Positions 1,573 to 58,580 of a DNA stretch of 62,810 nt are shown here, in pieces. Both the position numbers and the translations under genes were made by a program. The notes under the pieces are model-generated. The model saw only the letters and a program-made list of their open reading frames with translations, searched no databases and was not told the DNA's origin. This DNA comes from Rhizophagus irregularis. Its lineage: Eukaryota. Each line of letters starts with the position of its first letter. The first letter of the stretch is position 1. The stretch lies in NCBI RefSeq assembly GCF_026210795.1, contig NC_089430.1:6076001-6138810 (forward strand). The letters are read 5' to 3'.

Positions 1573-4500
1573 ATGTTGCGTAAAATATTGCCAAAAATAG
1601 AAATAAAAGTTCCCAGAAAGAGAAAAACTTTAGGTAGGCTTTTATTGTGTTTAGAAATATACTGCATTTCGGAATGTTAACATGCCAACCTATTTATAGG
1701 TGCTAAAGATGTCAAAATGTCGAACAGCCCATCTGAAACTAATGCTGTTTCTGGTTTGTAATTTCGTATATGGCTATTTGTACTCTTTATTGTATTCTAA
1801 TTTCTTGTATACGTCTGAAGAGCCTGCTCTTAAGAACCACTCATCTGATGAGAAACAAAACACAGCTTCAGCGGAATTCACTTCAAAACCGGCAAAAAAT
1901 AATGAATTTGTCGAAGGTGACCTCGAAGAGTTTGCAGAGAGACTGGGAATCAAAGAATTTACAGAAAATAAAGTCAAGTGGAAAAAATTTTACAGTACGT
2001 AATAAGTCTAATTCAGCTTGGTTGCATTTTTACTAATATATCCTTTGTTTAGACTTCGCTGGCTTGAACTTTGTTTGGCCTTCCGAATTGAACGCCTATG
2101 AGCATCGTGAAGTCTTTGATTACATTGTTGATCCTATTTGGGAGCCAGACGGAAAGGAACTTGCAATAAATACGATCGAGTATCGTCGTCTACTTGAATC
2201 CGGCATTCTTGATGAACCGAAAGGAACGCGAATTGTCGATCCCATTCGGGAGCCAGACGGAAAGGAACTTGCGATCGAGTGTCGTCGTCTACTTGGTTCC
2301 GGAACTCTTGATGAATCGAAAGGAACGCGAACGCACGTTTTACTTGTTCATGGGAAAGTAATTGGGTACGGAAACGAGATATCTTCAAAACAAAGCAAAG
2401 AATTACAGAAAAAGTTCCCAGGATGCTTCTACGCACCTATTGTTGAACCTTTTGTTGAGTTACGCAGATTCTATGCTGTTGCTGATAATAATACGAAAGA
2501 GTGGCAGGTTTGTATGGTTTATTAGTCCGGAGCGAAGCGAAGGACTATATACTATTCGTTTCGGTTTCACAAATGTCCCGATGTCCGCCCGCTCACTGTT
2601 TGAGTCGATATCCATACATTCGTATTGGTTCTATCGGTTATTTCGGTTAACGTCACTCTTTGTTTATTCATGTGACAAAAATAAAAATAAAAATAGAACA
2701 AAGATTTGCTTGTTTGATTACGTTATACCGTTTATTTTTATACCGTTTATTTTTTAATTAATAATTAATCAAAATTAAAATAGAATAAAATCATAAAATC
2801 ATAATTTTTTTTTTATTCAATTTTCTATTTATTTAATGTAACGAAAAAAAAAATAATATTGTTTAAACTGAACTTTATAATGACGAAACCACTTTGATTT
2901 TTTTTCGATATATCTTCTTTTTATCTGAAACAATAAAAAGTAAATAATTAAGCGCGCGTCTTGCAAATATATAATACATCCCGCGTCTTTCTAAAATAAT
3001 AAAAATAAGAAAATACCCCAACTTGTCCTCTATCGAGCTATCCTGGAGGTAAGCCTTTTTTCCTCCGCCTTCCTTTCCTGTAACCTGCTGCTATTTTTAA
3101 TACGTTGAAGTCTGTCAAACGTAAATTGTCTGAAATAAATGTCGCTAAGAGAACGAATGCGTGACGCCACTACGAATGTCAATCCTGCAGCGAACTCTTT
3201 ACTTCCAATATCTATTTTAGCCTTTGACAACGTCAGACCCTGACTTTTGTGCACGGTTATTACCCACGCTAGGCAGAGAGGAACTTGTTGTCTGGAACAT
3301 ATCGTCCCAGACTTACCTTCCCAACTTCTTTTAATGGGTACTATTGGAACAACATGGTCTCCTTCTGTCGATGTTATGGTGGGTCCTTCATACGCATCGA
3401 ACTTGACGAAAACTGCTGCTGGAAGTGATGGTGGACCTTGATTTTTGAACAGTATGTCATGAACGGTTCCGATCAATCCGTTCACTAATCCTCCTTTGGT
3501 CCACAGGTTTGCTGTGAGCATTACTCGAGCTCCTTTTGCCAATAATAACTGAGGTTCAAGTCCCTTTGCCACATCTGAACTGGCTTTTTTGGCTTCGTTT
3601 CCGCCGGTATGAACTGCCATAATCTTGGCCACAGGTCGCTTCAAAGATCTGAGCTTCTCTATATTGATTTTGTCAACATCATTCCACGTTGTTAATAAGA
3701 ATACAACATCTGAAAATCTTTCACATTCCTGCTGATTTAGATTCTCTTCGAACCGTGTACTGAGTATCTTCCAATCGTCAAGGCTGCTTTCCCCATCACG
3801 CATCCTTAGAAGTATGTCACGGAATTCTTTTTGTTCGTTTGAATTACCTGTTTGCCTTAGAATTACGTTGATCTTGAATACTTCTCTTATATGTTTATAT
3901 GCAGCTATACCTTTATTAGAATTTCCGTCTACACTTGTGTTCTTGGAGAACATAGGAACGTCAAGTACTGGCGGTAATTGATCAAAATCGCCAAGTAATA
4001 TGATGGATCTTCCTCCGAAGGGCTCTTTGGAATTTTTGGGAAAAGCCTGTCTTAATCTCATGTCTATTACCGCGAGCATTCGACGTCCGACCATGCTTTT
4101 CTCGTCAATTATTAGATAAATTACTTTTTTTAACCTTTCTTGTAATTGTTTCAGTCGCCTGCTATCAAGTTTGAGGTTTTTTGGGTTGCGTATTGGTATG
4201 GAAAGCGTTGAGTGTATCATTGATCCATTTATATTAAAGGCTGCTATACCCGTAGGTGCGATAACCAGAACCGGAGAATCAGTGTTGGTTCCTGCCATTT
4301 CGTGAAGTTTCTGCCGTATCGTCTTGATAAGATACGACTTTCCCGTACCAGCGGTTCCCATTATCATAATCCTTAACGCTTTGACCTTCTTCCCGTTGAG
4401 AATATCATTGTAATGTGATTCTATTCGTGTGAAGATTTTTTTTTGATTTTCGTTTAACTTCCAGTAATCTATTGAATCAATATCAACTTCTCTTCCGTCT

Positions 4501-7500
4501 AATATCCCAGAATTCAAGGCGTTCTAAATGAATTCGTCAACATTAGCAATATCGTTATTGGAGTAGTTTTGTTGTGCGTCAGTTATCCAATCGTGATTCT
4601 GATCCATATCACGAGAACCAAGGTCAGATGCGCAATGTATGATCGCTTTGGGTCCCATCTCCGCGAGCCGCATCCAGTCGTATCTATATTGTTCCTCATC
4701 CTCATCTTCGTCCTCTTCGAACGGTAGTTCGTCTTCACTATCTTCATCATAAACCTCTTCTTCGTCAACAGGTTGTCCGAGCAAGTCCTGTGGTGCATCG
4801 TTTATCGTATCTATATGTTGATCGTATAAGGTAGACCAATTGATATTGCCGTTTTCTGTAAGTACTTGCGTTTTGCGATGTCGGACGTGGAGTAGAACTT
4901 TTACTCTGCAATAAGCCTTCCATTGATCTCCGTTACGATAAGATGATGGATGAGGCCAGACGCGAACTATGTTTTCTTTCTTACACTTTTTCCATTGACC
5001 CCTGGAAAACCTATGCGTAAGGTATAATTCAAATAACGAATAATCTTCTAATTCTTCTGGTCGTTTCCAATATCTTTTTAAAGCTGATTGAGTTGTATGT
5101 CCAGTGTCTTCTACATTATCTCCACTACCTGTTCCTTGGATCCACCTTAATCCTTTCTCGTTAACATTTAAAGATACAAAGGAATGACTTGAATGATATA
5201 GTGCAGTTCCATTAAGGAGGTGACAGGTTTCCTGAGCTGATATGTCACGTTCCGACACGCTGTTGAGTAGGAGTTTCTGAATTGGAGAAAGTGAAGAATT
5301 GTCAGGATTGCTGTTGTCAAGAATTTGCTTGAAGATCTCAGAGAATGCCAGTGAACTTGGTTCCGCTTTACTGGCATATTTTGATATATATTGGAGCGCT
5401 GCGTGAATGCTAAGAATAGGCTTTAAATCCATATTTGCTCTCCATCCCTGTAGCTGTATTCTGTTATGTGGATTAATGTAAGGATCGTTTCTTGCCGTAA
5501 GTAATTCTGGCTGCCCGTTTTTATCATCACGTATTAATGTGCTTCTGATGTGTTCCTTAGGGTACCCAAATCTACATGTTTGCACTCCTTCACAATTTGT
5601 GCGTATGCAGTACGATGGGCTGCATCTCGTGTGATGCTGAAGTTTGTTGATTAATTCGATATAATCTTGTAAGCCATCATCGATTTCGCTGCTATCTTTT
5701 TGGCATGGGTGCTTCTCAGGTACGGGTGCATGTATTGCTGGATTTATTGTGGTGACTATAGAATCGATGTAATCAATTACGTTCTTCATCTCTTCTTCGT
5801 TGTTTTTTAAATTCTTCCATTCAATAGTGGGTGCGTTGCGTTTCTTTCCAATACCGTGCATGTGGATGCTCCCTCTGTGCTGCCATTCATACCGAAACCA
5901 CCAGTCCTCGAGGTTCCATTTTTCCTTAAGCACATTATTAAAAAAACTTTCGAATCTTTTGGTAAAGAACCAAGCCGCGATATGAGGGTTATTGATGACT
6001 TTTGATTGAGCGTCTCCGTCGTCTGGCATGAGTCGATGAAGGTTAGGCCAGTGAAAGTCTGCTGTGCTGAATGTATAAAATATTAGACCTTTGTGTCCTA
6101 TTTGCTTTATCATGTCTGTAAGTTCACCACGTTTTGCTATCCAAAATTGCCTTGTCCCTCTTAGCCCTTCCCCGTATCTCATTATTCTGTCTGCTAATTG
6201 TTGATTTCCATTGGATATCATCTCTAGAATGTCAGACACGTCAAGCTGTTTTTCGCTTAAATTCTGTCGGACATATACCTTTCCTTCTTGCAAATCTCTC
6301 CATCGCATCGTAGAATTTAATGTAAAGTACCTCCATCTCGAGTGACGTCCAAATCGTCCATCTTTGAACCAGAGTAAGTGTTTAAAATACTCTGCTGGCT
6401 TGATATCTCATGGACGATTAGATCTGAGATCACCTTTTCCATATGGATATAGAGTCGGAAATGCCCTCGCAATATACCCTAGTGTTTGGAATTCGTTTAT
6501 TGGACTTCCGTCAATCTCAGGCCACAATACTGGTTGCTCGTTGCTTTGTATGCGATCAAGTGTATCGTTAATAATGGCATTTTCTCTTTGCGTTGAAGGT
6601 AAGGCAGGCACAAACGAATGAGTTATTGCGTCGCTCTCGTCGTGTCCATTTTCATTTTTGTTTTCGTTTGAAATATCATCCATCTCATCAATTATTTGGT
6701 CAGATCTTATCTGATGTATCTGATTAATGATAGAACCGTTTTGAGGTAATGATTTAAGTATTTCATCGTCAATGATTATATCTTCGTAATAAGGGTTATT
6801 TGCTTTTAACCAATATAGCGCTTTTGCTATTTTTTCGTGGCGTACGGTGAAATCTCTAAATCCTGATGTGTTGTTGGCTGATTCTCGTCACACTACTAGA
6901 ACGTCTAATGATGAAGGATTTCGTGGAAGGTGCCTTGTGAACTCCCGAACGTCTTGCGGAAAATTAATCACATTGCCTTTGTAGCTGTTTTGTCCACCTT
7001 GTAATCGATATACTGACATTACCATAAAAACCTGCGCAATGAGCATCTCTTCGATGTCGGTAAGTCCCTGAAGTTCATCAGGAACCTCGCCTGGATCCAT
7101 GTTATTATCCGCAGAAAATTTTTTTGGTGTCTTTTTGTCGTTGTGGTAATGACGACACTCGCCCATGATGAGAGTCATATTGGAAATCCGTTCGTTACAT
7201 TCGGGGCAAGTATTATACTGTATGTTATCCATTTTGTTACAAAATTTCTGCAATACTTTGTGATCGTTCTCGCTAATTTTAGTAGACGATGTTGACCTGA
7301 CATGCATGTTTCTATTATCAGGCTTTCTTTGAATATGTTCATTATCATTTGATTCGTTTATTTGCTGATCTTGCAGTTGATTCTTATTATGAGCTCTCAA
7401 CACGCGTTTACGATTACTTTCATGTGCTAAGCAAATAACATGTTCATCGTCCCTCTCCATTTCTTTTTTATTATTTCTTCTTTTGCGAAGGCTTTCTAGA

Positions 7501-8919
7501 CGTTTATTACGTTTATTTTCACTTTCTTTCACTCACTTTTGACGTTTTCTTTCACTTTCTCGATTTAGTCGAGCTTGCCTTTGTTCCGGCATCTCCTGTG
7601 CTTTAGCTTTTCGCTTTCGAATCGTTTCGGGATTAACATTTTCATATGTATTGTCAGACATTTCTCAAAATATTTGATCTTTATAATCAAAACTACCATT
7701 TCTTAAAAAAAAAATCTGATCTTTATATTTTTGTAGAATTTTACTTTATAAGCTCTGCAATCTGTCAATAACAATCCATCCGTGCGCCATTGAGAAAATG
7801 ACTGTCAAGAACAATCCATCCGTGCGGCATTGAGAAAATGATCAATGTTATAGCTAAATCGAGAATAATTAGTTTAAATGATGTACACACTTTATTGTTA
7901 TTCTTTATTGTTATTCTTTACATTGTTATTCTTTACATTGTTATTAGGTAATTTATTACATATAAAAAAACATTTACATTGAAGACATTTTGATCTTATA
8001 TTTTTCGCTTTATTTGATAGTGATTTGAATTGAATTAATATTACAAACGTTAAATTTTAATTATTATGACTTTTTTTTCGAATACTTATAACCGTTAAAT
8101 AAATTTTTGATTTTGTAAATTTCGTGGCTTATCACCATATTACATTTGTACGAAATATGGTTATTCATGGCTTATAATATGAACCTCGTGGCTAATTTAT
8201 TAACGTATTACATAAATAATAAATTTGACTAGCTATTGTGTTATATTCGTTAACTACCTTCCTCCCGTGATTGCTTCAATCAAATTTATCCGTGTTTAGT
8301 TAAATTTACCCATGTTTAATTAAGTCGCTTTTCGCTCTAGACTCCCAACGGTTCCCGTTCCCTAGTTTAATTCATGATAATAAGGTTATTGACAGGTATA
8401 ATTCGATACCTTGTGAAACTTTATAATGAATGATATCTGTCAATGCCTAATAATGGGAATGGTGTTACAAAATTTTAGACGCACATTAGCCTTCGAAATG
8501 TTGATAATCTTAGTGATGTAGTAACAATGTCAAACACTGAACAAAATTTTCGAATGGTAATCGATACTGGAGCAAGCGTGACTATAATTCCATTTTTTTT
8601 AAGACAACAATTGGCGGATTATTGTGATGGTTGGGAAAGATTTACTGTTCGAGCTAGTGGATATGGAAATGGTGTAAAAATCACTCCGGCTTCAAAAAAT
8701 TGGGATGTACACCTAGGTGATGGGAGAAATTGGTCCCGATGGCACAGCACCAAAGAAATTTATTCTTGGCTAAACAATCCTCCATCTTATATCAATTGCG
8801 GATTAATTGGTTACGATGTTCTCAACAATATACCTCATTATAAACCTTGTAGGGTGCCTTATGTCTTTCTCAGGGATGACGTTTTCAAACAAATTCAACA
8901 GTTGCAAGATGTCATATGA
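1573..8919 (+). CDS. Five-exon gene with C-terminal clan AA (retropepsin-like) aspartic protease domain; exons 1573-1633, 1700-1753, 1821-1994, 2053-2507, 8479-8919
   Basis: All four introns are GT..AG with matching phases (1,1,1,0), checked by hand. The last exon has VIDTGASVTII and a later GLIGYDVL motif. Intron 4 contains the Helentron. Confidence 0.7.
2521..8365. mobile_element. Helentron/Helitron2-type rolling-circle transposon
   Basis: Left hairpin TAGTCC-n13-GGACTA (2523-2547). Asymmetric inverted repeat agtccggagcgaagcga (2524-2540) versus tcgcttttcgctctagact (8325-8343). Right hairpin AACGG-ttc-CCGTT (8347-8359), then CTAG and TTT. T-rich flanks, no TSD, RepHel inside. Confidence 0.85.
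3030..7661 (-). pseudogene. RepHel transposase (HUH Rep + PIF1 helicase), broken by stops and frameshifts
   Basis: Rep motifs EWQHRGSIHMHG and YISKYASK. PIF1 motifs GTAGTGKS, IIDEKSM, GDFDQLPPV, TVHKSQGLT. N-terminal VPDELQGLTDIEEMLIA region. Split across ORFs 6888-7532, 6408-6683, 4524-6308, 3030-4517. Confidence 0.92.
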
Positions 8920-9528: not shown

Positions 9529-11450
9529 TTACATTTCTTGATTCTCATCATTATGAACATATTCCCCAAATCTCACACTCTCTAACATAATTTCACCACT
9601 TTTTCAGCTGTTATGTCTTTATCTTCTTGAATAAATCTAACTGCTGCTTCAGGAATAAGAACTTCTTGCAAATATTCCATTGGTGTTTGTGGTATTGTTA
9701 GAGATTTTGTTAAAATTTTAGTATCAATAAATAGCTTTCTTAAAGTTTCTGCAATTACAATAGCATCACGGGGACCATAATAACCAGGCTAATTTTAAGA
9801 TAATTATAAAAGAAACTTGATTATTTATTATTTATGTATATATATGATATATCATATTGATATAATAAAAAAATTCACCTGAAAACTTTCAATTCGGCTC
9901 ATAAGACTCATAGGTGAATTAATTTTGTTTTTTCCTTTATCACAATATTCTCTCATAAAATTATCACGATAGAAGCTTTTGACTTTCTTTTTACAAATAT
10001 CCAATAGATCAGTACTGAAATTTTCAATTCTTTTAGGAATAGAATTGAAATCTATCACTGTTGGATAACCTTTTTTAATACCATCTGGAATGATTTGCAT
10101 TTCTCCTATATGAGCATGACAAAATTCAAATTGCTCTACGGCTTTTAACCTTTTTCCTTGAAAATTCATAAATAAATCCTTTAACTTATTGGGCAAAGGA
10201 GATGGTAACTTTTCATCACAATAAGGACATATTTCAGGTATCTTTATAATAAAATTTTGAGTTTTGTTAAATAAATTATAACACCAACTGATTTTTATAA
10301 ATAATCAAAAGAAAGTGGAATTATAATTACTTACTGTAATAGAGTTAATATTTTCATCATTGCTACTTGAGTTTCCCTTATTACCGATCTGAAATAGATA
10401 AAAAAATTATCATAACTATTTATTGCATAAAAAATATTTATAATGAATTTCTTACCATAATATTTTCTTTGTTTCCATTAGAATCTTTCTCCTATGTATT
10501 ATTAACAAGAAATTATTTTTTTATAGTTTTGAAAATAAAGAATGAATGTATAAAATCTTTACCTTTAGTTTTTTTGATTTTTTTCTTTGAGAATTAATTT
10601 CTATACCAGATTTTTTCCTTTTATTTGAATGTACGCCACCTTTTGGCTTTACATTTTGTAGTATCTTTATTATGTCATTATTATTAATAATTTGACCATT
10701 ACAATTCTCAATTGTTGCCGCAATTTGTGCATTTAATAATAATGTTATAGTCATCAAAAATTATAGCTGTCTCTGGTTTTTGATTAACAAATCGTTGTAA
10801 TTTCCAAATTGTACGATTAAGTTTATATTTATAATCCTGTTCTAGCTGTGGCTGTTTCATTATTAATTGATCTTGCAAATCATGCAAAGGTTTATGTTTG
10901 TAAAATGATTGGTAAATTTGTATCATTTCGGATTCATTAGGATCTTTACACCAGCATGAAGGATACATCTTTTTAGAAAATGAATCAATATTTAATTGTG
11001 TAGCAACACGAAGAATGTGATGACAAATTATTCCAGAAAAAGCCATATATCCACATGTACACGTAAAAATTTCATTATTCAAACTGTATTCTACTACTCT
11101 TCCATTACTTGAAGATCCAAATCTTGTAATAAGAAATATTTGAAGACTTTGATTTATGCTATTAAATCTATTAAATAGAAAGTAAAATTAATAATATTTA
11201 TTATAAATAATTCTGATGAAAATTTATACTTACATATTAGATTGAATGAAAAATTCACTATAATAATAAAATAATTGTTAAATAAAAAAAAATCCAATTT
11301 TTATATAATAAAAAAAAAGAATTATTTACCTATCAGGAGGAATTTCTTCACATTTATAGCAAGAAGATTGTAACAATTGCTCTTGAAATTTTTTTAAAGC
11401 ATAAATAGTAAGAATAGTAGCAGCTTGTTTTTCAAATAGGCTGGGTGTTT
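9529..11450 (-). pseudogene. 5'-truncated MULE/FAR1-type SWIM zinc-finger gene followed by an RTC4-like domain
   Basis: LFEKQAATILTIYALKKFQEQL (FAR1/MULE-like) and SWIM CTCGYMAFSGIICHH. Downstream exons give QFEFCHAH...GYPTVIDF, GYYGPRD and YLQEVLIPEAAVRFIQED (RTC4-like). The frame stops at the 11450/11451 junction. Confidence 0.65.
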
Positions 11451-11517
11451 AGTAGATAGATTAAGTAGACATCACTATATATATAGTGATGTGAGATGTC
11501 TACTTAATCTATCTACT
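11451..11517. repeat. Nested terminal palindrome
   Basis: AGTAGATAGATTAAGTAGACATC (11451-11473) and its exact reverse complement (11495-11517), with an inner ATCACTATATATATAGTGAT palindrome. A further partial inverted copy lies at ~11524-11540. Confidence 0.95.
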
Positions 11518-12176
11518 TGCACCATAGTGATGCCTACTTATAGATATTGATGCATACTTACTTATTTTTACGTGTCTATGCCCCTTCTGATGCTTTATTG
11601 CTATCCATCTGTTTTCACTGGTCTGTGACTGATTGGTCGCTAAGCAGGGCAGAGGTTTGTTTTTCCATCCTGAAGCCTTTTAACAATTGTATAGGAGTAA
11701 AGTTAGTTTTTTCACTCTTTGACCCTTGGGGTTGCCATATTTGAGGTCGAGGGTGTGGCCCATTTGCTGGCCTTTTAAGTTGCTGAAATGGTGTAAAAAA
11801 ATCATCGGGTGGCGCAGTAAATTTGCAGTTCAGATTTTGGCCAGCTTTATACCATAATTTTGGCCGATCTTTGGAAATTAGCGTCCTGGTAGCGTCCTGG
11901 TAGTATCCTGGAGCTGTCATGGAACTGGCTGGGAACCTGAGTATTTCTATTAGTTTGCCAGTTTCAGGCCAGCTTGGATGCCGAATTTGTACTACGCCTT
12001 ACTGCGCCAGTTACGTGATCCTGTTACAGCACCAAACACCCTTTCATAGTTACAGGCTAGTGACGCAAACATTTCCAGAACATTTCTGGCTTGGATAGCG
12101 AGCTCTTCCCCGTTACCTTCCCGTCACATTCAAGGTGGTGGTTGGTTGAAGGTTTGAAGATGCCCATTTGATTACT

Positions 12177-12342
12177 GGATGAGGCACGAAGTGCCGAGTT
12201 GGTGACCCAGATGTGTAATCCCGCCTTTTATGATCCTTTTGATTGCCGGATGAGACACGAAGTGCCGAGTTGGTGACCCAGATGCGCAATCCTGCCTTCT
12301 ATAACCCTTTTGATTGCCAAGGATGAGGCTCGAAGTGCCGAA
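12177..12342. repeat. ~71-bp tandem repeat (2.3 copies) carrying GGCAC-GAA-GTGCC hairpins
   Basis: ggatgaggcacgaagtgccgagttggtgacccagatg... recurs at ~12177, ~12248 and ~12321. Confidence 0.9.
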
Positions 12343-12842
12343 TTAGTTCAGGCTATACAGCTTTCATATCTTTTTTCATGTATTCTCCTGAACCTTTCTG
12401 CTTTTCTGACCTCTTTTCTACCTATCGCCGGTAGTATCCCAAGTTGTAATTTCTTATTTTCTTTCTATATATTATTCTAACTTGGGTTACTACCAATTTT
12501 ATATCTTATTTTTCGCTCCTGTCTTTTTAGAACTCTTTCCCGTATAGTTGCTATGAAGGAATACTTTTGGGTAATACTGCATCGATTGTTTTTGGGTATT
12601 ACTTTTGGGTACTACCACATCGGTACTACTGCATTATTGTTGAATTCGATCACATATATTTTTTATTTTGAAGATTTACAAGTTTCTATGTAATTTTATA
12701 CTAGTTTCTTACATATACTACCATGCTACTTGCGCAAAAAAAAGCCCAGGCCTCGCCCCCTTGTTTGTTCTGAATAAATTAGTCCGGAGCTGATGATCAC
12801 TACCGCAAATTTCTGCATATATTATTCTATTGTGCCTATAAA

Positions 12843-13369
12843 ATGGAAGATTATAATGATATTGACACTAAAGCTCTGGCATATGCCCAGAGACGTGAAG
12901 AAAGATGCTTAGGCAAAGTTAGTCCTAATACGTATTTATGGTCATGTAAAAAGGGTCATCAATGGGAGGCACCATATAAAAATATGAAACAGAATTATAG
13001 ATGGTGCAACATTTGCCCAAATGTACCAGAAAGAATATGCCGGTATATATTTGAGGATTTATTGCATAAAAAATTTCCTCTCTGAAAATCTAAATTCTTG
13101 GAGGGATTACATCTAGATGGATATAATGAAGAGCTAGGCTTGGCTTTTGAATATAGCGGTAATCAGCACTATCAAATCGTCCCTTTTTTTCACTCGCAAT
13201 GCAAGGGCAGATGGATCTAGATGCACAAATCTGGTGTGATTGGAAAAAGAAAGCGTTATGCTATCGGGAAGGAGTAATCCTTATTACAATCCCTTACTGT
13301 GTAGTAGACTTAGAAACTTTTATAAGGAGCGCTTTATACGCATTCGGTTATCTCCCAATACCCACCTAG
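12843..13369 (+). pseudogene. Zinc-ribbon + PD-(D/E)xK/Vsr-like endonuclease
   Basis: WSCKKGHQW...WCNIC, then after TGA at 13083 LHLDGYNEELGLAFEYSGNQHY, a frameshift near 13200, and D..KK..C..EGVILITIPY ending TAG at 13369. Confidence 0.75.
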
Positions 13370-14532
13370 GAGGTAACATGGACTCTTCCTTAATATGCAT
13401 CAATTGTTCTCTCACGAAAGGGCGTTGGGGTCCTGATTCATCTAAATAATATAAAATAGGCATTGGAGAATTCTTTCCAACAACAATTCTCTGAATCTTA
13501 TGCAGGCTGGGAGACCATTATATCAGATCTGTTATTCTGCGTCGTTCGAAAGGATCATTTTCCTACTCTCCAGAAGTGAGCAAAAATCGGATAGTAGTAC
13601 CCTTTGGTAGTTGTAGTTCATCAACACCTATTGGGCGATTATATTTTACTGATGGTTTGGAATATATCTGCTCAAGTTTTGTGGCGTCATTAGGACTCAT
13701 CCCAATCAATCGAGTTGGCTATCATTCATATTATCAACAATTTTTCTTGCAAACCGCTCACATTCTCTACAGCGCTTGCCAGTAGGTAGGAGAAACTCTA
13801 TTGAATACTGATTTTTAAAAACTCTATATTCAAATAATCCAGCATAACGATCGATCATTGCGAAACTTGTATGCCTGAAACGTGCTATAATTCTTTGGAT
13901 CTCAACGCCATGTTCATCCATTAATAAAGTCACGTATCCCATAAACTTAGTGCCCTTATCACATTGCAATTTTCGAGGCCAGTTAAGAGGTTTATCAGGA
14001 TTATCATATATACTCTTAAATGCTTCTGCAACTTCCTCACTGCTCTTTGATGTTAAAAAAATGAAATCTTTATATCTAGTCGCGCAGTCTATAACCAATA
14101 GTGCATAGTAATATATTGGGCCATCATTATCTAGTAAATTTGTATCCACATTTTCATCATATGGTATTTCGATTAAATCACATTGGTGCACAGTATTTGG
14201 CTTCGTGATTTTAAAGTAACTGGCATAAGGTATATGCTTTGGTAAAAGACGAAAAATTTGATACATTGCTTGGCCCTCAAGCCATTTTTTTACATTAATA
14301 AATGGAAAGCTGTAGCCAGCTTTTTTACAAGCATCCCACAATCCCTTAACATTTTGATACAGACCTTCAGGACGATAATATAGTTTTTGCAAGGCAAGAT
14401 GCTGGTCTAAATTATGAGCTTTTTGGGATCGATATTAATCGTAGGTATTTGTTTTGCTATGATTTGATCTAGCTCTCGCGCTTTTTGAGGATCGATATAA
14501 ATAACCGGTCTTTCGGCTTGGCGCTCTCCCAT
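13320..14532 (-). pseudogene. Retroviral-type (rve) DDE integrase of the Polinton/adintovirus class
   Basis: QKLYY..EG, HQCDLIE, LLVIDCATRY, LQCDKGTKF. After a frameshift near 13715: RLIGMSP, RRRITDLIWS, YYL...RPFVREQL...LPP, ending TAA at 13320. Confidence 0.85.
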
Positions 14533-14663
14533 TCCAATTTTTATAATTACGAAAAAAAGCTAACATCTATAAAGTCAGATTCTATTTATTAGCTAGGGCA
14601 CTTTTTTCCTTGCGGTTAACAAAAATATGTTTCTTGAATAAGTATCCTAGCTTTTCAAAAACT

Positions 14664-15455
14664 ATGGAGTATTACGAGCTATGCAAATTAGACGAAACTG
14701 TACCTTCGAAAAAACAGAATCCATTTGCTCCCAAACTTCCATTTAGACTAGGAGTTGCGGGCACCTCTGAGTCAGGAAAGACAAAGATGGTAGTACATCA
14801 GCTCCTAGGAAGTAAATATCCAAAAGTATATCTATGGATGTCTGGTGAAAAACGTGGTCATAAAATACCAAAAGGCGGAAGCAAAAATTTTGGTGAAAGA
14901 TATATTCCGTGTGATGATCTAATTGTTGTTGCGCAACACCAAGATGAAGAGCTATGGGAAGTAGTATAATATTTTTATGAATTTATAGCCATGGATAAGC
15001 AAGCTCCATGGTATGAAAATGTGAGATTCAAGCTAATCGCACCTGAAGATCTACCTGATATTTCATCTTTCAAAAGAACTTGCCGATCTACTATTATAGT
15101 CTTTGATGATCTTGCTGGGGAACCTTTGGCAACTCAGCTAAAAATTGTTCCTTTTTTTAGATCAGGCAGACATGAAGGAATTAGCTCAATTTATATTGCC
15201 CAGTGTTTCTATGAAATCCATTAAAATATACGCGGAAATTTTAAATATATTTCGTTGCATCATGGATGTGAAACATTAGATAGTATAAAACGAATTTTTA
15301 AAGATATGTATGATGATTATGAGCTTCTAGCAAAAAAAGTTTATGAAGTGATAAAAAAACATTTCATAATTATTGATATCCAAAAACCATCTAATGACCC
15401 CTTATCAATTAGATTTAGATGGGACAAACCTTTAAAGAATTGGCAAAATGATTGA
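14664..15455 (+). pseudogene. A32-like (FtsK-HerA superfamily) DNA packaging ATPase with two in-frame stops
   Basis: PFRLGVAGTSESGKT (Walker A), IIVFDDL (Walker B), FRSGRHEGISSIYIAQ (A32 arginine-finger motif), IRGN. ORFs 14610-14969, 14991-15224 and 15255-15455 share one frame. Confidence 0.88.
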
Positions 15456-15481
15456 ATTCGGGATGATTTGTGCTTTGTGGC

Positions 15482-15637
15482 AGGACCCCGGATATCTAAT
15501 ATAAAGGTCATAATGGACTTTTGGCCAAAAACACCCCTTTTTGCTGAAACTCAAAAAACGATTTTTTGAGCCCTGAAAAATGGGCCAATCTGCCGAAAGT
15601 GTGACTTATGACCTGTTTTGGAGATATCCGGGGTCCT
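15482..15637. mobile_element. 156-bp MITE, TIR AGGACCCCGGATATCT, 8-bp TSD
   Basis: Perfect 16-bp TIR; TSD tttgtggc at 15474-15481 and 15638-15645. A longer relative is at 52201-52496. Confidence 0.93.
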
Positions 15638-15646
15638 TTTGTGGCT

Positions 15647-16819
15647 TCATCCATATCCATAAGGTAAAGTTTCATAGGGGGTAGTCCTGTCTTTTGGTTC
15701 TTCTGTGTATTGGATTGGAAACCCATAACTCTTATTTCTATAGTCTGGATAAAAAATTTCTTTCTTTTTGGTTGGATGAAAAAATCGCCTGTATATATGC
15801 CATATAATTAATATTACTGTGAAGGCAAGAATAACAAAGAAGAATATAAGCGGGATTATTTTCTGATCATTAACTAAAGTATTACTATTACCTCCTAACG
15901 CAATAACAGGTATAGCTGGAATACTATCATAATCTTCTTTTCCATCAGGTTCGCGCTCTGAGTAGTGTGAAGAAAAATGGGGTATCTCTTCTACTACTTC
16001 ATCATGCTTATAATCATTAGATGATGAGACTGGGTCCGCTTCTGCACTACCTATTTTTGAATCATGAATTATCTAATGTGGTTGCGAAACAATCTGATCT
16101 AGTTCATCTTTCAGATTACTTACCCTGGACCTGAGACAGAAAATTAACCCATCCTTAAATGATAAATTTTGCGTAACTTTCTCCAGTTCATTTTCTAATT
16201 CCTTTGCTTTAATCTTAAGAGAGAGATTGCTATACAACTGGTTAGTATTGGAATTCTTTAATAAAACTTTCCGTATAGCTTGTTCCAACTCAGCCTCCAG
16301 TTCATTTATTTTAGTTCCAAGAGAGATGATATCAGAATCCTTTAAAGATGAATCTTTTTGTATCAAAAATATTATACTTTTCAGTGATTTGACCGTAGAC
16401 TTTAGCGATTCTATTTCTTTTAACTGCTTGGCATTAAGATTGGCATGAGACTTTTGTTCGCAAGTAATTTGGGAAACAAGCTTATTATTCAAACCATTTA
16501 GTTGATTAGCTAGAGAGATCATTTGATTCATAGATTTTTGCATACGCACATTTTCTTCATAGGAGTGGTCTAGATCATTTTGTATACTCTCATTTTCTTC
16601 ATAAGAGGCGTCCAAGGCGCTTTGCATACACTTATTTTTTTTATCTAAGGCATGATATTTAGCTATAAGCTGTTTAGCAGATCTTATAAACTTTTCACGA
16701 TCTTTTTTTAGCTGTTCTTCAAGTTCTAATCGGCTTGGTAGATATCGATTGGATGGAGGGCTTCCAAGTTTACTGCTATTACTATTACCTACATCGTTTA
16801 AAGTGTAGATTCGAGGCAT
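15647..16819 (-). pseudogene. Long coiled-coil protein with C-terminal transmembrane helix (390 codons, one internal TAG)
   Basis: ORF 16073-16819 continues in frame past TAG to TGA at 15647, giving IIPLIFFFVILAFTVILIIW followed by HIYRR and a Tyr-rich tail. Confidence 0.7.
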
Positions 16820-17088
16820 AGTTTTTTATCCCGCAAATATAGACAAAAAAAAAAATAAAAACATTTTTCGAAATAATATGCTCTTCTTATATTTCTAAAA
16901 TGATACATTTATCCTAATTATCCCAATAAATCTTTTCGAATTAATATATTTATCCTATTTATTCTATTAAATTATTTTTGAAATATCATAAAAACTACGC
17001 TTATCTTATTTATCACAAAGAATACATTTTTTCTAGTCATCCTATTTAATATTTTTTGAAATATTTTATCTGAAAAAAATACATCATC

Positions 17089-17559
17089 GTGATTATGGTT
17101 AGACAGCGTATAAATTGTAATGTGCCTTTATTTTCAACAGCTGATTACGATTTTATTATGCAACGTGAAAATAAAAGGCCGAGAAAGAAAGTTTTAGATG
17201 AATTGATGGACAAATATAAGACATCAATGAAGCACATATATCAGATTTGGAGAGGCGAAGAAGCTAATAGAATTGCCTGGAATCAACCAATAGCTGATAT
17301 TTCTAATACTACATATGCGGGTGGGTGTTTACCTATAGTAAACTACGACCCACCTCCTGCTATTTCCTCTTCACCTGCCTTACCACTAAAGAAAAATAGC
17401 CGAAAAAAGAAAACAGGTAAAATAAGTGTAGCATCTACTGAGACGGAAACAGAGGTGCTTTCACAGCGCAGTGCTAATACCACTGATAATACTGATAATA
17501 TATCTAAAATGGGATCTGAACTTGAAGAGGTATTAAAACAAATGGATAATATTAAATAA
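17089..17559 (+). CDS. Small basic protein with possible helix-turn-helix
   Basis: Uninterrupted 156-aa ORF. LDELMDKYKTSMKHIYQIWRG resembles an HTH; there is an NLS-like KKNSRKKK. Confidence 0.55.
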   Translation: MIMVRQRINCNVPLFSTADYDFIMQRENKRPRKKVLDELMDKYKTSMKHIYQIWRGEEANRIAWNQPIADISNTTYAGGCLPIVNYDPPPAISSSPALPLKKNSRKKKTGKISVASTETETEVLSQRSANTTDNTDNISKMGSELEEVLKQMDNIK

Positions 17560-17643
17560 CTTACTTCTTTTCAGCAAGTATTTTTATAGCACTTATTGCC
17601 TTACCAAGCCACTCTTCAGCTTTTGCAAGACGTTTTTCAAGCT

Positions 17644-18290
17644 TTACACACTTTTTTTTAAGTCCTCCTCACTATTTGGGCTAGAGGAGTTGGTAGATGC
17701 TTGGTCCTGATCTTCTTTTAGCAGATCTTCAACTTCTGAAGCTTTGCTAAAAGTTGGGATAATGTAAGCTTTCCCATGTAACTTCATTCAGAATTGATTT
17801 TTATTTGGGTCAAGGACACCTTGAACTTTCCTAATCCATGTCATACCTAAACATAACATTGGTTCGGGTTCTCCATTATCAATACGAATAAAATTTCCAG
17901 TAGCTGTGACAGTTTTACTATCCTTATCCTTTATACTGATTGGTACATCAGTAAACCATCCCAATGAATCGGTAATGTGTTTGGAATTACCTTTTATTGC
18001 GAAGTCTGATGGCTTATCAGCTTTCTACCCAAGGGCATTAATTGTTGCATCATTCACTCCCCTGAATTCACTCGCACTATCTAAAAAAGAATTAGAGATC
18101 ATTAAATCATCTATTTTAACATTCAGATATTGTAATGATGAAAACCACTCATCTGATATTGATTCTTTCTTTTGAACTGTATGAGACTGACACATTTTTC
18201 GCATTGCCGGTGAAAGTTTTGGAAATAATTCATCATATGTTTTTGGCTAACTGGACTCTAGAAGTAACTTATCATTTAGTGGTAGTTGTT
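17644..18290 (-). pseudogene. Retropepsin-like aspartic protease in the -1 frame relative to gag
   Basis: Hand translation gives YLNVKIDD...SFLDSASEFRGVN...SLGWFTDVPISI...MLCLGMTWIRKVQGVLD. It has three in-frame stops and is not in the supplied ORF track. Confidence 0.8.
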
Positions 18291-20735
18291 TTTTTTTTCA
18301 GATGTATAATACCACGCATTTTCTACTTTATCATAACCATCTTCCTCATTATCTGAATCTGGAGGCGTATATTGGGGCTGTGTAGATGGAAGTTGAGGAT
18401 AGTAACATTGAGTAAAATTGGATTTAGCTACAGGATTTAACCTTGGGCAATTGTTTTTCTTATGCCCTTCCTGTCCGCAATTACTGCAATAAAAAGGCTT
18501 TCGAGATTGATCATTAAGTGATATCCTACCAAACTTAGATGTCATTTGACCAATTTCATCTATTTTTGACTCTAATCTATCGATTCTAGATGATTGCAAC
18601 TTTTCTGGCTTTTGCGGTTTAGGAGGTGGCCCATAAGCTTTTGCGACTACTCTCATTATTTCTTTCCTAGTAAGTGTATCGGGGAAAGGATTAGCGCTTT
18701 CATATGTATCAAGAAGCTGTTCCATATTTTTAGGAGGAACTGGTGGAGGTATCTTTTTAGTTTGCTGGACCATTTGTGATTGGAAATCGGCTTTTTGTTT
18801 TTCTAATAAAGACTGGTATTCAGTTTTTTGCTGTGCTAATGCATTCTGGATTGCTTTTTGCATATCTTCGAAAGATATTCCATGCTGTTGTGAGGCTAAA
18901 ATAGGTGAAGGTTCATATATTTGCTGAGATGTTCGATTAGATACTAGCAGATCAGATGTTCTATCTCTTTTATGTCTAACTATTTAGCGTAATTCTATCT
19001 CATAAAGCTTTTTAGCTAATTCATCTAATGGCAAATGTTCACCAATATCTTCAGCTTTTTCAAGCCATAAAAGTGGTAAAGCATCTAAGAACTTTCTACG
19101 TAATTCTTCAGGTCTATAGTTGGCTCGTCTACCTATTCGTAATATTTTTCTATATAATTCATCTATAGTCATGTCTCCCTTTCTGATTGTTCCATACATC
19201 AAATCCTGAAGTTCCTCTTCTACTGTAGGGAAATGAGTTTTTAGCCACCATACGGCTTGACAAAATCGAATACCAGCTACAACTACTGTATTTCCAGTAT
19301 TAGCATTTGGTGCATTTACAGGATCATTAGTAGGACAGCCACCTGCTATACGCCAGTATTCATTCCAAGCATCTTCTACAGCTTTTAACTTGACTATTGC
19401 ATTTCCTGGTTAGCCAACAGCCTCATTTAATGCATTAGCTCCTATCTGTACTGCAGTTCGCCCATTTACTGCAACTAAGTTAGCCTGCCCTATATTATCG
19501 AGTAAGTTAGTTAGCTCCCAATTCTGCTTTGTAGTAATCTCATCATCGAACCATTCTAAAGTCCTTCCTCTCATACAGGCTCTTAAATGTCCTATTGCAT
19601 TATCTCTTCCTGTTGGAGGATCTGCTACATTATCATTTGGATCTATTCCCTGATTCTGCAAGTCTAGTCTAAGTTGTGCAAGAAAGTCTGGGATACTATT
19701 ATCCCAGTCGAAATATAAATGAGGTATTCCTGCCATGTTTACTTGATTAGGTGGATTATTCTGAAGTGCCAAAATTTGTCCCTGTAAATTTAAATTATTT
19801 TGGCGCTCTGCTTGGATCTTATTTTTCCATTTCTCATATCGTTCATAGAGCCTATCTCGATTAAATTCTAACAGACCTATATCCCCTCTACTTTGCTGTA
19901 AGTGGTAGGCATTTCGCTGATACAATAATTGTAAGGCAAATTTTTCTTGTACCAGCACACCTATACGGGCTTATTTTCTTGCCATATTACCTATCATTCT
20001 ATTTACCTTGTTTTGAGTATTAATTTGATATTGATGGAGATCACCAATAACATTAGTTATCCTACCTTCAGCAAGTTGCCTTCGTATAATTTCATTATCA
20101 CATTCAGCTTCTGTATCATAACGCCTTCGTTGCTCACAGACTAAATCCTGATGCAAATTATTTTCTTTTTGGCGTATCTGCCTTGTAGCTCTTTTTATTT
20201 GGTCTATAAGAATATCTCTAGTTGTTGCTCTATTATCCACATAACCATCTATAGCATTTGCTAGCTCTGTGATTGTGGCCATATTATCATTAAAATTATA
20301 CAAGTCTGAAGAATTCTCTTGTTCAGACGAATTTTTTCGTAATAAGATGCTTCTGATCTGGCATCGCAATTTCTTAACTTGTTCCTCAGATTCTACTAAC
20401 TGCTCTTCTAAACTAGAAATATATTTTCCCTTATCTCGCACATATTTCCTAGTTTAATATAGCTGACTTTTTAGGGTAAAGATTTCAGATTTTAACTCTA
20501 CTATCTCTTCTTTCGAAGCATTTTTAAGGCGCTCTATCTCCTTATTGAGATCTTGAATTTCTTGCTCACATCGGGTATAATCCTGTTCTAGTTGATTAAT
20601 TTGTCTCTCATTCTGGCGATTAGTATTAACTTTTATCTGCAATTCACTATGAAGATGATAGTTCTCTTCTTCCAGCTCAGCTTTATGTTCTTCACATGTT
20701 CTTTTCTGCCTTGGGTGAGATCTGTGAAATGACAT
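18276..20735 (-). pseudogene. Gag-like polyprotein (coiled coil, Ty3/Gypsy-like capsid, CCHC zinc knuckle), ~820 codons with four in-frame TAA
   Basis: Five supplied ORFs are all in one frame. Capsid-like LRACMRGRTLEWFD, WLKTHFP and GDMTIDELYRKI...RRKFLDALP; knuckle CSNCGQEGHKKNNC. Confidence 0.82.
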
Positions 20736-21043
20736 TCTTTTTTTGTGATTATAAAAGAGAATGGGAGAACCCCTTGGATCAATTTATATTAATCTTCAGA
20801 AAGCACATGATCTTAACCGGGATCTGGGTTAAGGACTAATCTGAAAAATTTGGCAGGTGATACATGAAATGTATAGCGACTTCAACCAATTTTACTAGGC
20901 GATCATCATGTATGCAGATTATTTAGCATAAAAAATAAAGAATAAGTTATACATTGCACCTTTGCATTGGCTAAATAATATTAATTTTCAGTTAAAAGCA
21001 ATAGTCTATAATGTAGAATATTTCTCAGAATCAGTCAAGTCAG

Positions 21044-21736
21044 TTAGACAATCATGATTAATGTTCCATCCCTCAATCTCAACGCAGTGCCTTTTGGCTG
21101 TTTTGCATATTGAGACGAAATAAATATTTTGCCTGTATCACTTTTGCAATTTGATGACTGATAAGAAGTTGGTGGAATCATTTCTTGGTTACCAGAGGTA
21201 ACAGAAATACAAGCTGGCTCGAATTTTGGAGCACTTGGCATAATATTTTCTGCTATAGTTGCTTTAGCTGAAAGGTAAGTTTCATAGCTGACTGAACGAA
21301 TATCATAATCATATGATACCGATGCCAACTTATCCTTTTCTGAGTCTGAGGTAGATTGGGAAAAAAGCTCTAGACGGAGACGATTAATTTTAGCCTCTTC
21401 TTGTAATATGTATTGTTTATATTGCCAGATCTGAAATTCCCTTATATCAATAGATTTGAGAATTTCATTTCTTCTTGCATATTCATTCAAAATAGTATTT
21501 CCAGAAATACATCTCTTCAAGTGGTTATCTCCATAGCGATCCTCAAAAAGACTATTTGCAGGTGTGAAAACTAAGGAGTTACATACACTGCAATATATAT
21601 AATTGGTTGGACGATTATGAATCCTATCATCTACATATAGCTTTCCATACATTGTAATATATCCATTCTTAGAAAGGATTCTTGGATTCTCTTCTAGTAT
21701 TTTTCTAAATGGATTACGAATACGAGAGCACCACAT
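21044..21736 (-). CDS. Hypothetical protein with CxxC...H...C putative zinc finger
   Basis: 230-aa open ORF with YCSVCNSLVF...NHLKRC, directly upstream of and co-oriented with gag. Confidence 0.5.
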   Translation of the reverse strand: MWCSRIRNPFRKILEENPRILSKNGYITMYGKLYVDDRIHNRPTNYIYCSVCNSLVFTPANSLFEDRYGDNHLKRCISGNTILNEYARRNEILKSIDIREFQIWQYKQYILQEEAKINRLRLELFSQSTSDSEKDKLASVSYDYDIRSVSYETYLSAKATIAENIMPSAPKFEPACISVTSGNQEMIPPTSYQSSNCKSDTGKIFISSQYAKQPKGTALRLRDGTLIMIV

Positions 21737-22716
21737 TTCTGGTGTTTCATGATCATGTCTTTCTGCTAAAGAGATTATAGCAACAATAATTCTTATATAT
21801 TCTTCAGAGCATCCGACACTATTGTGTCATGAATTAACTTAGAATAGGCTTTACTATCTAAATCCATATTAGCGTTTTAGTAGATTATAACAGAATATAA
21901 CGATTTTATTGATTTATACTGTTTTTAGCGATTTTAGCCAATTTAGCAATAGTATACTCTAATAAATATCAGATTCATTTTTATTCGATTATAAGCATAC
22001 TGAGGATTTATATAGGGCCATATCTCGACTATGCTAATTTTATATTTACATGCATATGCACAACGCCTTGGCTAAATCGGTTTGTGGTACAACGTATATC
22101 ATATCACAGTATCACCCTAACTCCCTGCCAGTTCCTCGATAGTTCTAGGAGAGTTCCAGGAGCTGGCGAGTTTCTATAAATCACGAGATGATCAGTCAAT
22201 CAGATTTCGATTGATTTATACATTTATTTCTAGATATGAATCGAATTTTTAGTTATATGAAATCATTAAGTTCTTAAGGGTCATAAATTTAAAAATCAAT
22301 AGTCTGATATAGACAAAGCTTTATTATTTTTTTTTATTGATACAGAGCATTTATAAAAAGAAATCCACTGACCGATCGGACAGTGAATAGAAAAATAAAA
22401 ATGACTTCATGGAGACCCCGCATATGAAGTGTGGTCGGAGACATGACATGCAAAAATTAATGCTAATCTTATGTCGCACAGTCCGGCACTGTGCAATTGA
22501 TCTGGCAATTTGTTTTGAAATCACGTGCACGGGACAATTCCAATACAGATATACACATACACGCACACTGGTTAAAAATAGGTGATCTGTTTAGCGAAAC
22601 TTTATAATTTTATTAAGCAATTTTGAATAATATAAACTTAGTTACATGGTAATATGCTAAAAAAAATGCCAATTATTTCACCAACTAATGTTATTTATAT
22701 ATATAAATTATTATCA

Positions 22717-45522: not shown

Positions 45523-45741
45523 TAAGGTTGCTGGAAAAACTAGGAAGTTTTGGCAAGTTGGCGAAATGCCAAAATAGCAAAACTTTGCTGATACTATATG
45601 AAAGTTTTATTAAAAAGTTAGCGAAACTCTAGAGAAAAGCGAAACCTGACAAAACTTATTATAAATACCGAAACTGCCAAAACCTTACCAAAATTATAAT
45701 AAAACTATAGTAAAATCTTGGAGTTTAGGCAGGCAACCTTA
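45523..45741. mobile_element. TAAGGTTGC-family MITE
   Basis: taaggttgct...ggcaacctta; reverse-complement homolog of 46930-47173. Flanks gtgtaccc/gtatactt match at 5/8. Confidence 0.85.
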
Positions 45742-46866: not shown

Positions 46867-46929
46867 CTTTTCACCAGTAACTTGTATTATATAACAAGCG
46901 ACATGATCAGTTTTAAGTGTATTTGAGAT

Positions 46930-58364: not shown

Positions 58365-58580
58365 TATATCAATATTATATAATGTTAAAGTAATTTTTAA
58401 TAATATGTAACATATATAAATTATTTATTTTATAAATTTTTATTTTTAATATAATATAGTGTAATGTTAAAGTAACTTGCAATAATATGTAATATATATA
58501 TAAATTATTTTATTTTATAAATTTTTATTTTTAATACAATATATATAGTGTAATGTTAAAGTAACTTCTAATAATATGTA

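What the first reader, a model, noticed from the sequence alone, without database searches (positions are those of the whole stretch)
11451..22350. Candidate new virus-like element: retroviral gag-protease plus Polinton-type integrase and A32 packaging ATPase, with no RT
Seen: one compact, intronless block holds gag (capsid-like + CCHC), a retropepsin, a coiled-coil/TM protein, an A32-like ATPase, an rve integrase with an adintovirus/Polinton-style C-terminus, a Zn-ribbon nuclease and an HTH-like ORF. No RT, RNase H, LTR, polB or jelly-roll capsid is recognisable. Known: Polintons pair integrase and A32 ATPase with pPolB, double jelly-roll capsids and a cysteine protease, while Gag and retropepsin belong to reverse-transcribing elements. 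Inference: a chimeric DNA element whose structural module is retroviral Gag-Pro. Genes abut or overlap (17559/17561; 13320-13369) and show similar decay, which favours one unit over a chance nesting. I know of no description of this architecture but cannot search the literature.
Basis: partly seen in the sequence, partly recalled or inferred. Interest (0 to 1): 0.92.

Follow-up and report, generated by a model that had tools for sequence, protein, structure and literature searches.

The report
Fungal Polinton with retroviral Gag shell
A decayed copy of a mobile element found across arbuscular mycorrhizal fungi joins a Polinton-like integrase and DNA-packaging ATPases to a retrovirus-type capsid (Gag) and protease with no reverse transcriptase, so it likely used a retroviral shell in place of the Polinton capsid that has never been found in these fungi.

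Summary
11451-~22350 is a decayed copy of a multicopy Glomeromycota element: nuclease, rve integrase, A32 ATPase, coiled-coil/TM protein, and gag-protease. Gag has a retroviral CA fold (PEG10/Arc/Copia, Z 9.7-11.6). No RT, polB or jelly-roll capsid was found, and there is no room for one. It is not a one-off nesting. Integrase sits head-to-head with gag in 3 of 16 metagenome loci and behind an ATPase in 6. Gag-pro and ATPase are consecutive genes in R. diaphanus. Across subfamilies ~30% identical the protease ends at a conserved Lys run; where readable, a short coiled coil follows, not RT. New here: two slippery sites, a second ATPase paralogue, an integrase stub and a terminal palindrome. It is not wholly unseen. 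R. irregularis Polintons lacking a capsid are known, and a 2021 figure legend lists Gag/retropepsin on a PolB-bearing element (host not named in the text I could read). Best reading (0.55): a Polinton lineage whose structural module is Gag-Pro; this copy lacks the replicase. Particles, the packaged nucleic acid and the link to polB are untested.

The parts
11451..11517 (.). Left terminus, begins 5'-AG; near-perfect palindrome (23-bp perfect arms, about 30 bp with a 7-nt bulge)
   Evidence: other contigs break or change flank at 11450/11451; a different 34-bp perfect palindrome lies at the matching end of L012
11518..12842 (.). Left non-coding subterminal region with three 71-73-bp repeats (12164-12347)
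   Evidence: matched by L012
12843..13369 (+). Zn-ribbon nuclease-like gene, one stop and one frameshift; convergent with integrase
   Evidence: same position in 7 of 16 integrase loci
13320..14532 (-). rve integrase, broken by frameshifts and stops; D-D-D rather than D-D-E triad in the family
   Evidence: third acidic position D in 77 and N in 6 of 83 motif matches
14664..15455 (+). A32-type ATPase, paralogue A (263 aa in homologues), 2 stops; Walker A has E at the usual glycine position
   Evidence: E in 72 of 75 motif matches
15482..15637 (.). Nested 156-bp MITE with 8-bp target duplication; not part of the element
   Evidence: empty-site joint 15474-15639 in 3 of 4 runs; related copy at 52200-52497
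15640..15730 (-). N-terminal stub of a second A32 ATPase (paralogue B, 37% identical to A); its body is replaced here by the inverted ATPase-A cassette
   Evidence: matches the start of P0059 and L014, where ATPase-B is whole and runs into the integrase
15647..16819 (-). Coiled-coil protein with a C-terminal hydrophobic (TM-like) segment, one stop; no family found
   Evidence: its C-terminus precedes ATPase-B in L014 and in model P0101
17095..17559 (+). Small ORF of unknown fold (HTH not confirmed)
   Evidence: 73% identical over 56 aa to part of Acaulospora model P0191, which joins it to ATPase-A
17561..17662 (-). Short coiled-coil ORF in the -1 frame after the protease, behind an A AAA AAA run (17659-17652); lies where pol would be
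   Evidence: equivalent short tail then stop in P0258, P0259, P0475
17644..18306 (-). Retropepsin-like protease in the -1 frame of gag, broken by stops
18288..18294 (-). In-frame A AAA AAC slippery heptamer at the end of gag; no stable downstream stem-loop predicted in this copy
   Evidence: fold -1.3 kcal/mol; homologous gag frames end in KKN or KKK
18276..20735 (-). Gag: ~320-aa N-terminal coiled coil, CA-NTD, ~90-110-aa conserved Ala/Asn/Gly-rich insertion, CA-CTD, CCHC knuckle; 4 in-frame stops
20761..20830 (+). N-terminal stub (21 codons) of a second integrase, head-to-head with gag
   Evidence: the same head-to-head layout is whole in L004, L010, L015
21044..21870 (-). ORF of unknown function with a Cys/His cluster
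   Evidence: no family
22122..22182 (.). Diverged inverted match to 11865-11934, possible remnant of a terminal inverted repeat; repeat cover ends near 22300-22350 and no right terminus is left
   Evidence: 34 bits against a maximum of 28.3 in 100 shuffles

Best explanation
This is a decayed, replicase-less copy of a Glomeromycota mobile-element family that joins an rve integrase and A32 ATPases to gag-protease without RT, and it is likely a Polinton/Maverick lineage in which Gag-Pro took over the structural role of the jelly-roll capsid and cysteine protease. Shown: gene content, CA fold, recurring linkage, purifying selection, a sharp left end starting AG, no RT in this copy. Inferred steps: (1) Gag is made in excess and Gag-Pro by -1 frameshifting at the conserved slippery site, as in retroviruses. 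(2) The integrase excises and inserts a DNA copy. (3) That DNA is copied by a pPolB or primase-helicase encoded by fuller family members, in trans for copies such as this one. (4) Gag assembles a shell around the DNA, with the NC knuckle binding it and an A32 ATPase loading or condensing it; the retropepsin matures the shell. (5) The coiled-coil/TM protein anchors particles to membranes, aiding movement between nuclei of the coenocytic mycelium or across hyphal fusions.
For: Linkage: of 16 integrase loci, 9 have enough upstream DNA to judge; 3 carry gag head-to-head (L004, L010, L015; integrases 80, 62, 80% identical to P0002) and 6 carry an ATPase in tandem (two of these only 20-28-aa ends); 7 of 16 show the nuclease downstream. 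RGB34391 (gag-pro) and RGB34390 (ATPase-A) are consecutive on one R. diaphanus contig, and that model runs gag-pro > CC/TM end > ATPase-B start in the window's order. A Funneliformis model (P0052) joins antisense gag start to integrase. Five consecutive integrase/ATPase-A accession pairs in R. irregularis. No RT: 0 of 29 gag hits of 575-2000 aa and 0 of 9 further members scanned; longest of 62 gag-family proteins held is 1107 aa. Protease frames in subfamilies ~29% identical end about 147 residues after the catalytic Asp at a Lys run; in P0258, P0259, P0475 and the window a short coiled coil and a stop follow. dN/dS about 0.2-0.4 for gag and 0.13-0.34 for integrase against metagenome copies. 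Literature: Glomus Polintons of 11,954 and 11,019 bp lack MCP, penton and cysteine protease, the smaller has an ATPase (PMC4028283 Table S1); the window element is about 10.9 kb; no MCP found for G. intraradices (PMC7805220); Rhizophagus/Glomus A32 ATPases group with Maverick-Polintons (bioRxiv 2026.06.19.733378); Gag/retropepsin labelled on a PolB-bearing element (PMC8502044).
Against: No locus I could read holds gag together with a polB or helicase; all 16 loci are under 2.9 kb and no host genome was available. The R. clarus gag-pro cluster (P0110) has accessions far from any listed ATPase or integrase, e.g. GES95095 vs GES94739 and GES88864 vs GES88719 on shared contigs (lists capped at 15 members, ATPase-B never searched), so some gag-pro subfamilies may live without these genes. 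Summed contig depth is several-fold higher over the 5' half of gag and the right end than over the ATPase/CC region (the tool warns this is no copy number). What follows the protease could be read in only two other subfamilies; RT in a -1 frame is not excluded elsewhere. A32 ATPases are known to work with jelly-roll shells, not Gag lattices (recalled), and paralogue A has an atypical Walker A. No TSD or intact TIR pair could be shown. No relatives in IMG/VR for integrase, gag or ATPase. That the integrase is Polinton-type rests on recalled motifs and was not tested against reference Polinton integrases.
Confidence: 0.55

Rival explanations
1. An integrase-driven DNA transposon of Polinton descent that keeps gag-pro as a conserved accessory (nucleic-acid chaperone, condensate or anti-silencing scaffold). 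No DNA-filled particle is made, and the ATPases are vestigial or repurposed.
For: Module order is shuffled among copies; ATPase-A has a non-canonical Walker A; nothing in viral contig collections.
Against: Both CA domains, the knuckle, the protease and the frameshift layout are kept across ~30%-identical subfamilies under purifying selection, which fits a working assembly-and-maturation module; a membrane-anchored coiled coil and two packaging-type ATPases are also kept.
Confidence: 0.2
2. An RT-less retro-like element: Gag packages the element's RNA, RT is borrowed from co-resident Gypsy elements, and its own integrase inserts the cDNA (like TR-GAG or LARD elements, recalled).
For: A CCHC knuckle normally selects RNA; the gag/pro/third-frame layout with two slippery sites looks like a gag-pro-pol whose pol was cut; Gypsy elements are recently active in R. 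irregularis (bioRxiv 2021.03.30.436303).
Against: No LTRs; the end starts AG with a palindrome; genes lie on both strands, so no single genomic RNA reads them; A32 ATPases would have no role.
Confidence: 0.12
3. The element needs no replicase of its own: it leaves the chromosome as a hairpin-ended linear DNA copied by host polymerases and resolved by its nuclease, and the terminal palindromes are opened hairpin telomeres.
For: Two unrelated palindromes sit at the same terminus in two copies (window 11451-11517; L012 2706-2739); the nuclease gene always flanks the integrase where visible (7 of 16); inverted module swaps fit replication through head-to-head dimers.
Against: Only two termini seen; Polinton-sized Glomus elements and Rhizophagus pPolB are on record; stubs at 15640 and 20830 show that this copy has lost sequence.
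Confidence: 0.08
4. A one-off nesting of an LTR-retrotransposon fragment in a Polinton remnant.
For: The region is subtelomeric and full of nested elements (Helitron, SWIM/MULE, MITE).
Against: Gag neighbours integrase or ATPase at several independent loci and in at least three species; the gag family shows no RT; repeat cover spans the block and stops at both of its ends in 4 of 4 runs.
Confidence: 0.05

Closest known systems
Glomus/Rhizophagus Polintons (Polinton-1_GI, P_Gi1.1, P_Gi1.2) and class Polintoviricetes
   Same: Same host group; about 11 kb; no MCP, penton or cysteine protease; A32 ATPase in P_Gi1.2; rve integrase; terminus begins AG (Polinton trait recalled).
   Different: Gag-retropepsin is not mentioned for them in any text I could read; this copy has no pPolB; two ATPase paralogues. 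I could not compare sequences with the Repbase entries, so it may be the same family.
PolB-bearing element with 'Matrix/Capsid/NC/Pro' in Fig. 5 of Starrett et al. 2021 (PMC8502044)
   Same: Gag and retropepsin in a Polinton/adintovirus-like DNA element; the paper also mentions Rhizophagus PolB sequences.
   Different: That element has PolB. Its host, gene order and any ATPase are unknown to me: the figure is not held, the text read does not discuss it, and the supplement is cut before Table S1.
Metaviridae/Pseudoviridae and retroviral gag-pro (Ty3/Gypsy, Copia, PEG10, Arc)
   Same: CA fold, CCHC knuckle, retropepsin, slippery A AAA AAC between gag and pro (the heptamer's use in HTLV/MMTV is recalled).
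   Different: No RT/RNase H, no LTRs, integrase is a separate gene often on the other strand, a 320-aa coiled coil replaces matrix, and a ~100-aa insertion lies within CA.
Caulimoviridae coat protein
   Same: Gag-like shell that holds DNA; weak BFVD matches to badnavirus and caulimovirus coat proteins (E 0.17-0.19).
   Different: Caulimoviruses reverse-transcribe and have no integrase or A32 ATPase (recalled).
Cross-lineage chimeras such as bidnaviruses, cruciviruses and Teratorn (recalled)
   Same: Replication/integration module of one lineage joined to the capsid of another.
   Different: None of them pairs a Varidnaviria packaging ATPase with an Ortervirales Gag.

Membership tests
Polinton/Maverick (Polintoviricetes) | rve integrase | tested here: met
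   PF00665 E 3e-6 to 6e-7, slightly below the cut-off; stand-alone gene of about 400 aa
Polinton/Maverick (Polintoviricetes) | Integrase falls in the Polinton clade | tested here: inconclusive
   Nearest relatives are unnamed stand-alone integrases of 330-370 aa; no reference Polinton integrase could be reached; resemblance is recalled
Polinton/Maverick (Polintoviricetes) | A32/FtsK packaging ATPase | tested here: met
   Pox_A32 above cut-off; a preprint places Glomus/Rhizophagus A32s with Maverick-Polintons, not checked on these sequences
Polinton/Maverick (Polintoviricetes) | Protein-primed polB (or helicase-primase) | tested here: not met
   Absent from this copy; full-length family members could not be read
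Polinton/Maverick (Polintoviricetes) | Double and single jelly-roll capsid proteins and adenain-type protease | tested here: not met
   No hit and no spare coding room; the two unassigned ORFs (17095-17559, 21044-21870) have no usable structural model
Polinton/Maverick (Polintoviricetes) | Long TIRs starting AG and a 6-bp TSD | tested here: inconclusive
   Left end sharp and starts AG; only a 40-60-bp diverged inverted match on the right; right terminus and TSD lost
LTR retrotransposons / Ortervirales | Gag with CA fold and NC knuckle | tested here: met
LTR retrotransposons / Ortervirales | Retropepsin | tested here: met
   D-S/T/P-G motif and weak Pfam/PDB hits in homologues; not folded
LTR retrotransposons / Ortervirales | Reverse transcriptase and RNase H | tested here: not met
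LTR retrotransposons / Ortervirales | LTRs | tested here: not met
   No long direct repeat in 10-24 kb
Element drawn in Starrett 2021 Fig. 5 | Same host and homologous Gag/PolB | not testable with these tools
   Figure not held; supplement cut; no Rhizophagus MELD taxon found

The most novel reading that the evidence does not exclude
Glomeromycota carry a family of integrating DNA viruses that replaced the whole jelly-roll morphogenetic module with retroviral Gag-Pro yet kept the A32 pump. They package DNA in a Gag shell without reverse transcription, a chimera of two virus realms, and Gag is the missing capsid of the Glomus Polintons.
Probability: 0.4. Interest if true: 0.92.

Novelty: new variant of a known kind. 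Interest (0 to 1): 0.76.

Why it matters
Polintons of Glomus/Rhizophagus have been listed since 2014 as lacking any capsid gene, and a 2021 survey still found none. A conserved, selected Gag-Pro module in their place gives a direct candidate and makes the question testable with existing genomes. If the Gag shell holds DNA, the retroviral capsid is not tied to reverse transcription, and an A32 ATPase can work with, or outlive, a change of capsid fold. The family is spread over at least ten genera of plant-symbiotic fungi, with intact-looking ATPase, integrase and gag-pro gene models, so live copies may exist.

Tried and rejected
No host genome held; metagenome loci not searchable as genomes. 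IMG/VR scans with integrase, gag, ATPase and distant integrases found nothing; GTDB scans found nothing. These are absences from those collections only. Atlas searches for the 21-kb ORF and the coiled coil gave no usable lead. A by-eye likeness of the 21-kb ORF to the N-terminus of P0144 failed (E 2.1). The HTH model was too poor to search; HTH-like tails on ATPase-A models P0173, P0184, P0185, P0192 are by eye and did not match the window ORF. PDB sequence search with the integrase profile gave nothing. BFVD search of the Gag model gave no hit under E 0.1. The sequence that follows 11450 in run X17 is not in the window, so no TSD could be read. No stable stem-loop behind the gag slippery site in this copy. 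A genetic-code change was considered because the 4 gag and 2 ATPase stops are all TAA, and rejected: other frames carry TAG and TGA stops and frameshifts, and close homologues are open. Earlier scan findings: none. The 2006 Polinton paper is not held; PMC3671162 had no passage on Glomus.
Full report
Setting. The window is from an arbuscular mycorrhizal fungus close to Rhizophagus: integrase homologues are up to 92-95% identical, and every named hit among 96, 29 and 67 is from Glomeromycota. The window ends in TTAGGG repeats, so the locus is subtelomeric. No whole genome was available.

Observation. Gag is one frame of 820 codons with four stops. A 92% identical homologue folded with a 21-row alignment (mean pLDDT 65, CA helices about 80-87) matches retroviral CA C-terminal domains: PEG10 Z 11.6, rmsd 2.3 over 84 residues, Arc Z 10.0, and Copia over both domains Z 9.7. 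Foldseek E-values were only 0.07-0.1, and Z under 13 for helical bundles is not conclusive alone, but nearly all 50 listed rows are CA proteins and the knuckle and protease follow in the retroviral order. The protease is supported weakly but consistently. 'HTH' was not confirmed.

Extent. Laying contigs of four runs from four studies gave raised cover from about 11450 to about 22350 and low flat cover beyond (depth is no copy number). At the left, one contig changes flank exactly before 11450 and another leaves the window after 11450, so 11451 is a true end. It starts AG and is a palindrome of about 30-bp arms. L012 has a different, perfect 34-bp palindrome at the matching end. On the right only a 40-60-bp diverged inverted match to the left subterminal region remains; the terminus and any TSD are gone.

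A 156-bp MITE with an 8-bp duplication sits at 15482-15637. Beside it is the stub of a second A32 paralogue (B), which is whole and directly upstream of the integrase in L003, L014 and L016 and in models P0059, P0077, P0082; here the inverted paralogue A takes its place. A 21-codon integrase stub lies head-to-head with gag at 20761-20830. Gag ends at an in-frame A AAA AAC and the protease at an A AAA AAA run, each followed by a -1 frame.

Is it a unit? Of 16 integrase loci from 77 pattern matches (all under 2.9 kb), 9 show an upstream neighbour: gag head-to-head in 3 and an ATPase in 6; 7 show the nuclease downstream; the rest end too soon. In R. diaphanus, gag-pro and ATPase-A are consecutive accessions, and the gag model runs on through the coiled-coil end into the ATPase-B start in the window's order. 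Integrase and ATPase-A are consecutive in five R. irregularis pairs. Models from Funneliformis (gag start plus integrase) and Acaulospora (ATPase-A plus small ORF) agree. Against: the R. clarus gag-pro cluster P0110 was not adjacent to any listed partner (capped lists), and gag 5' and right-end cover exceeds ATPase-region cover. So the modules travel together in shuffled order, and some gag-pro copies may sit in layouts I could not see.

Is RT really absent? None of 29 long gag hits, nor 9 further members scanned, carries RT (the search scored only 7,999 candidates). The longest of 62 gag-family proteins is 1107 aa, and protease frames from subfamilies 29% identical stop at a Lys run about 147 residues after the catalytic Asp. 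Where the next frame is readable (window, P0258, P0259, P0475) it is a 35-45-residue coiled coil and a stop. This looks like an old gag-pro-pol whose pol was lost once, with the rest kept under selection (dN/dS about 0.2-0.4).

What is known. Krupovic 2014 Table S1 (read) lists Glomus Polintons of 11,954 and 11,019 bp with no MCP, penton or protease, the second with an ATPase. Bellas and Sommaruga 2021 (passages) still found no MCP for this fungus. Yutin 2015 (passages) has a Rhizophagus pPolB. Barth 2024 (passages) notes many primase-helicases in R. irregularis. A 2026 preprint (passages and section 5) places Glomus/Rhizophagus A32s with Maverick-Polintons from fragmented assemblies and has no 'gag' in its text. 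Dallaire 2021 (passages) reports recent Maverick expansion. Starrett 2021 (passages, sections 3.4, 4 and data availability, supplement part 1 and searches) labels 'Matrix/Capsid/NC/Pro' in Fig. 5 among PolB-bearing elements without discussing it in the sections read; the figure, the uncut supplement and the preprint's supplement were not visible and bear directly on novelty. Gallot-Lavallee 2017 and Muszewska 2017 (passages) added nothing on this layout. Ten library searches (uninformative, 128) found no paper that describes a Gag-encoding Polinton family in these fungi; subscription journals are largely not covered.

How it likely works. The most economical reading (0.55) is a Polinton lineage that swapped jelly-roll capsid and adenain for Gag and retropepsin, which are like-for-like functions (shell and maturation protease), and kept integrase and packaging ATPase. 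Replication would come from pPolB or a primase-helicase in fuller copies; this copy is a decayed derivative. Rivals: gag-pro as non-particle accessory (0.20), RNA packaging with borrowed RT (0.12), hairpin-ended DNA copied by the host (0.08), chance nesting (0.05). It works like a Polinton in integration and like a retroelement in its structural genes, but this copy fails the membership tests of both: no pPolB or jelly-roll capsid, and no RT or LTR.

Verdict. Real, recurrent and surprising; a new variant of the Glomus Polintons, probably glimpsed once in a figure, with a family-level anatomy I did not find described. Interest 0.76; 0.92 if Gag shells are shown to carry the DNA.

Noticed in passing
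window 3033-7532 (-): Helitron with Rep (Helitron_like_N E 3e-29) and PIF1 helicase (E 3e-37), broken by few stops.
   Followed up: partly
window 8479-8916 (+): Stand-alone retropepsin-like ORF with a DTG motif (gag-asp_proteas E 0.006), outside the element.
   Followed up: no
window 10708-11187 (-) and 11344-11442: SWIM zinc-finger (MULE-like) remnant just left of the element; a small repeat at 11344-11442 is shared with other contigs.
   Followed up: no
window 15482-15637 and 52200-52497: Very high-copy MITE family with AGG...CCT ends and 8-bp target duplications.
   Followed up: partly
window 33563-36323 (+): Crinkler-domain gene (PF20147 E 3e-10) followed by a P-loop region.
   Followed up: no
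window 61966-62810: Telomeric TTAGGG array with an internal switch of orientation, which may be an assembly fold-back.
   Followed up: no
window 47237-47634 and 45547-47150: Long inverted repeats (189 bp at 96%; 177 bp at 90%), probably fold-back or MITE elements.
   Followed up: no
window 52880-61400: Degenerate 24-29-bp and AT-rich repeat arrays in opposite orientations on either side of a very AT-rich block (13-20% GC).
   Followed up: no
Gag residues ~400-490 (window ~19250-19550): A conserved Ala/Asn/Gly-rich insertion inside the capsid domain in all subfamilies, low pLDDT, no match found; a candidate surface spike.
   Followed up: partly
and 86 tables: Pairs of consecutive ATPase genes (Glove_135g76/77, Glove_645g44/45, CAB4473746/7), either split genes or tandem copies.
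   Followed up: no
P0472 (GBC43461) and P0051: A distant gag-pro and an integrase share a contig length (1,228,016) in DAOM 181602, and name-giving tags GLOIN_2v1777355 (gag) and GLOIN_2v1777358 (integrase) are 3 apart; suggestive of linkage in the distant subfamily, not verified.
   Followed up: partly
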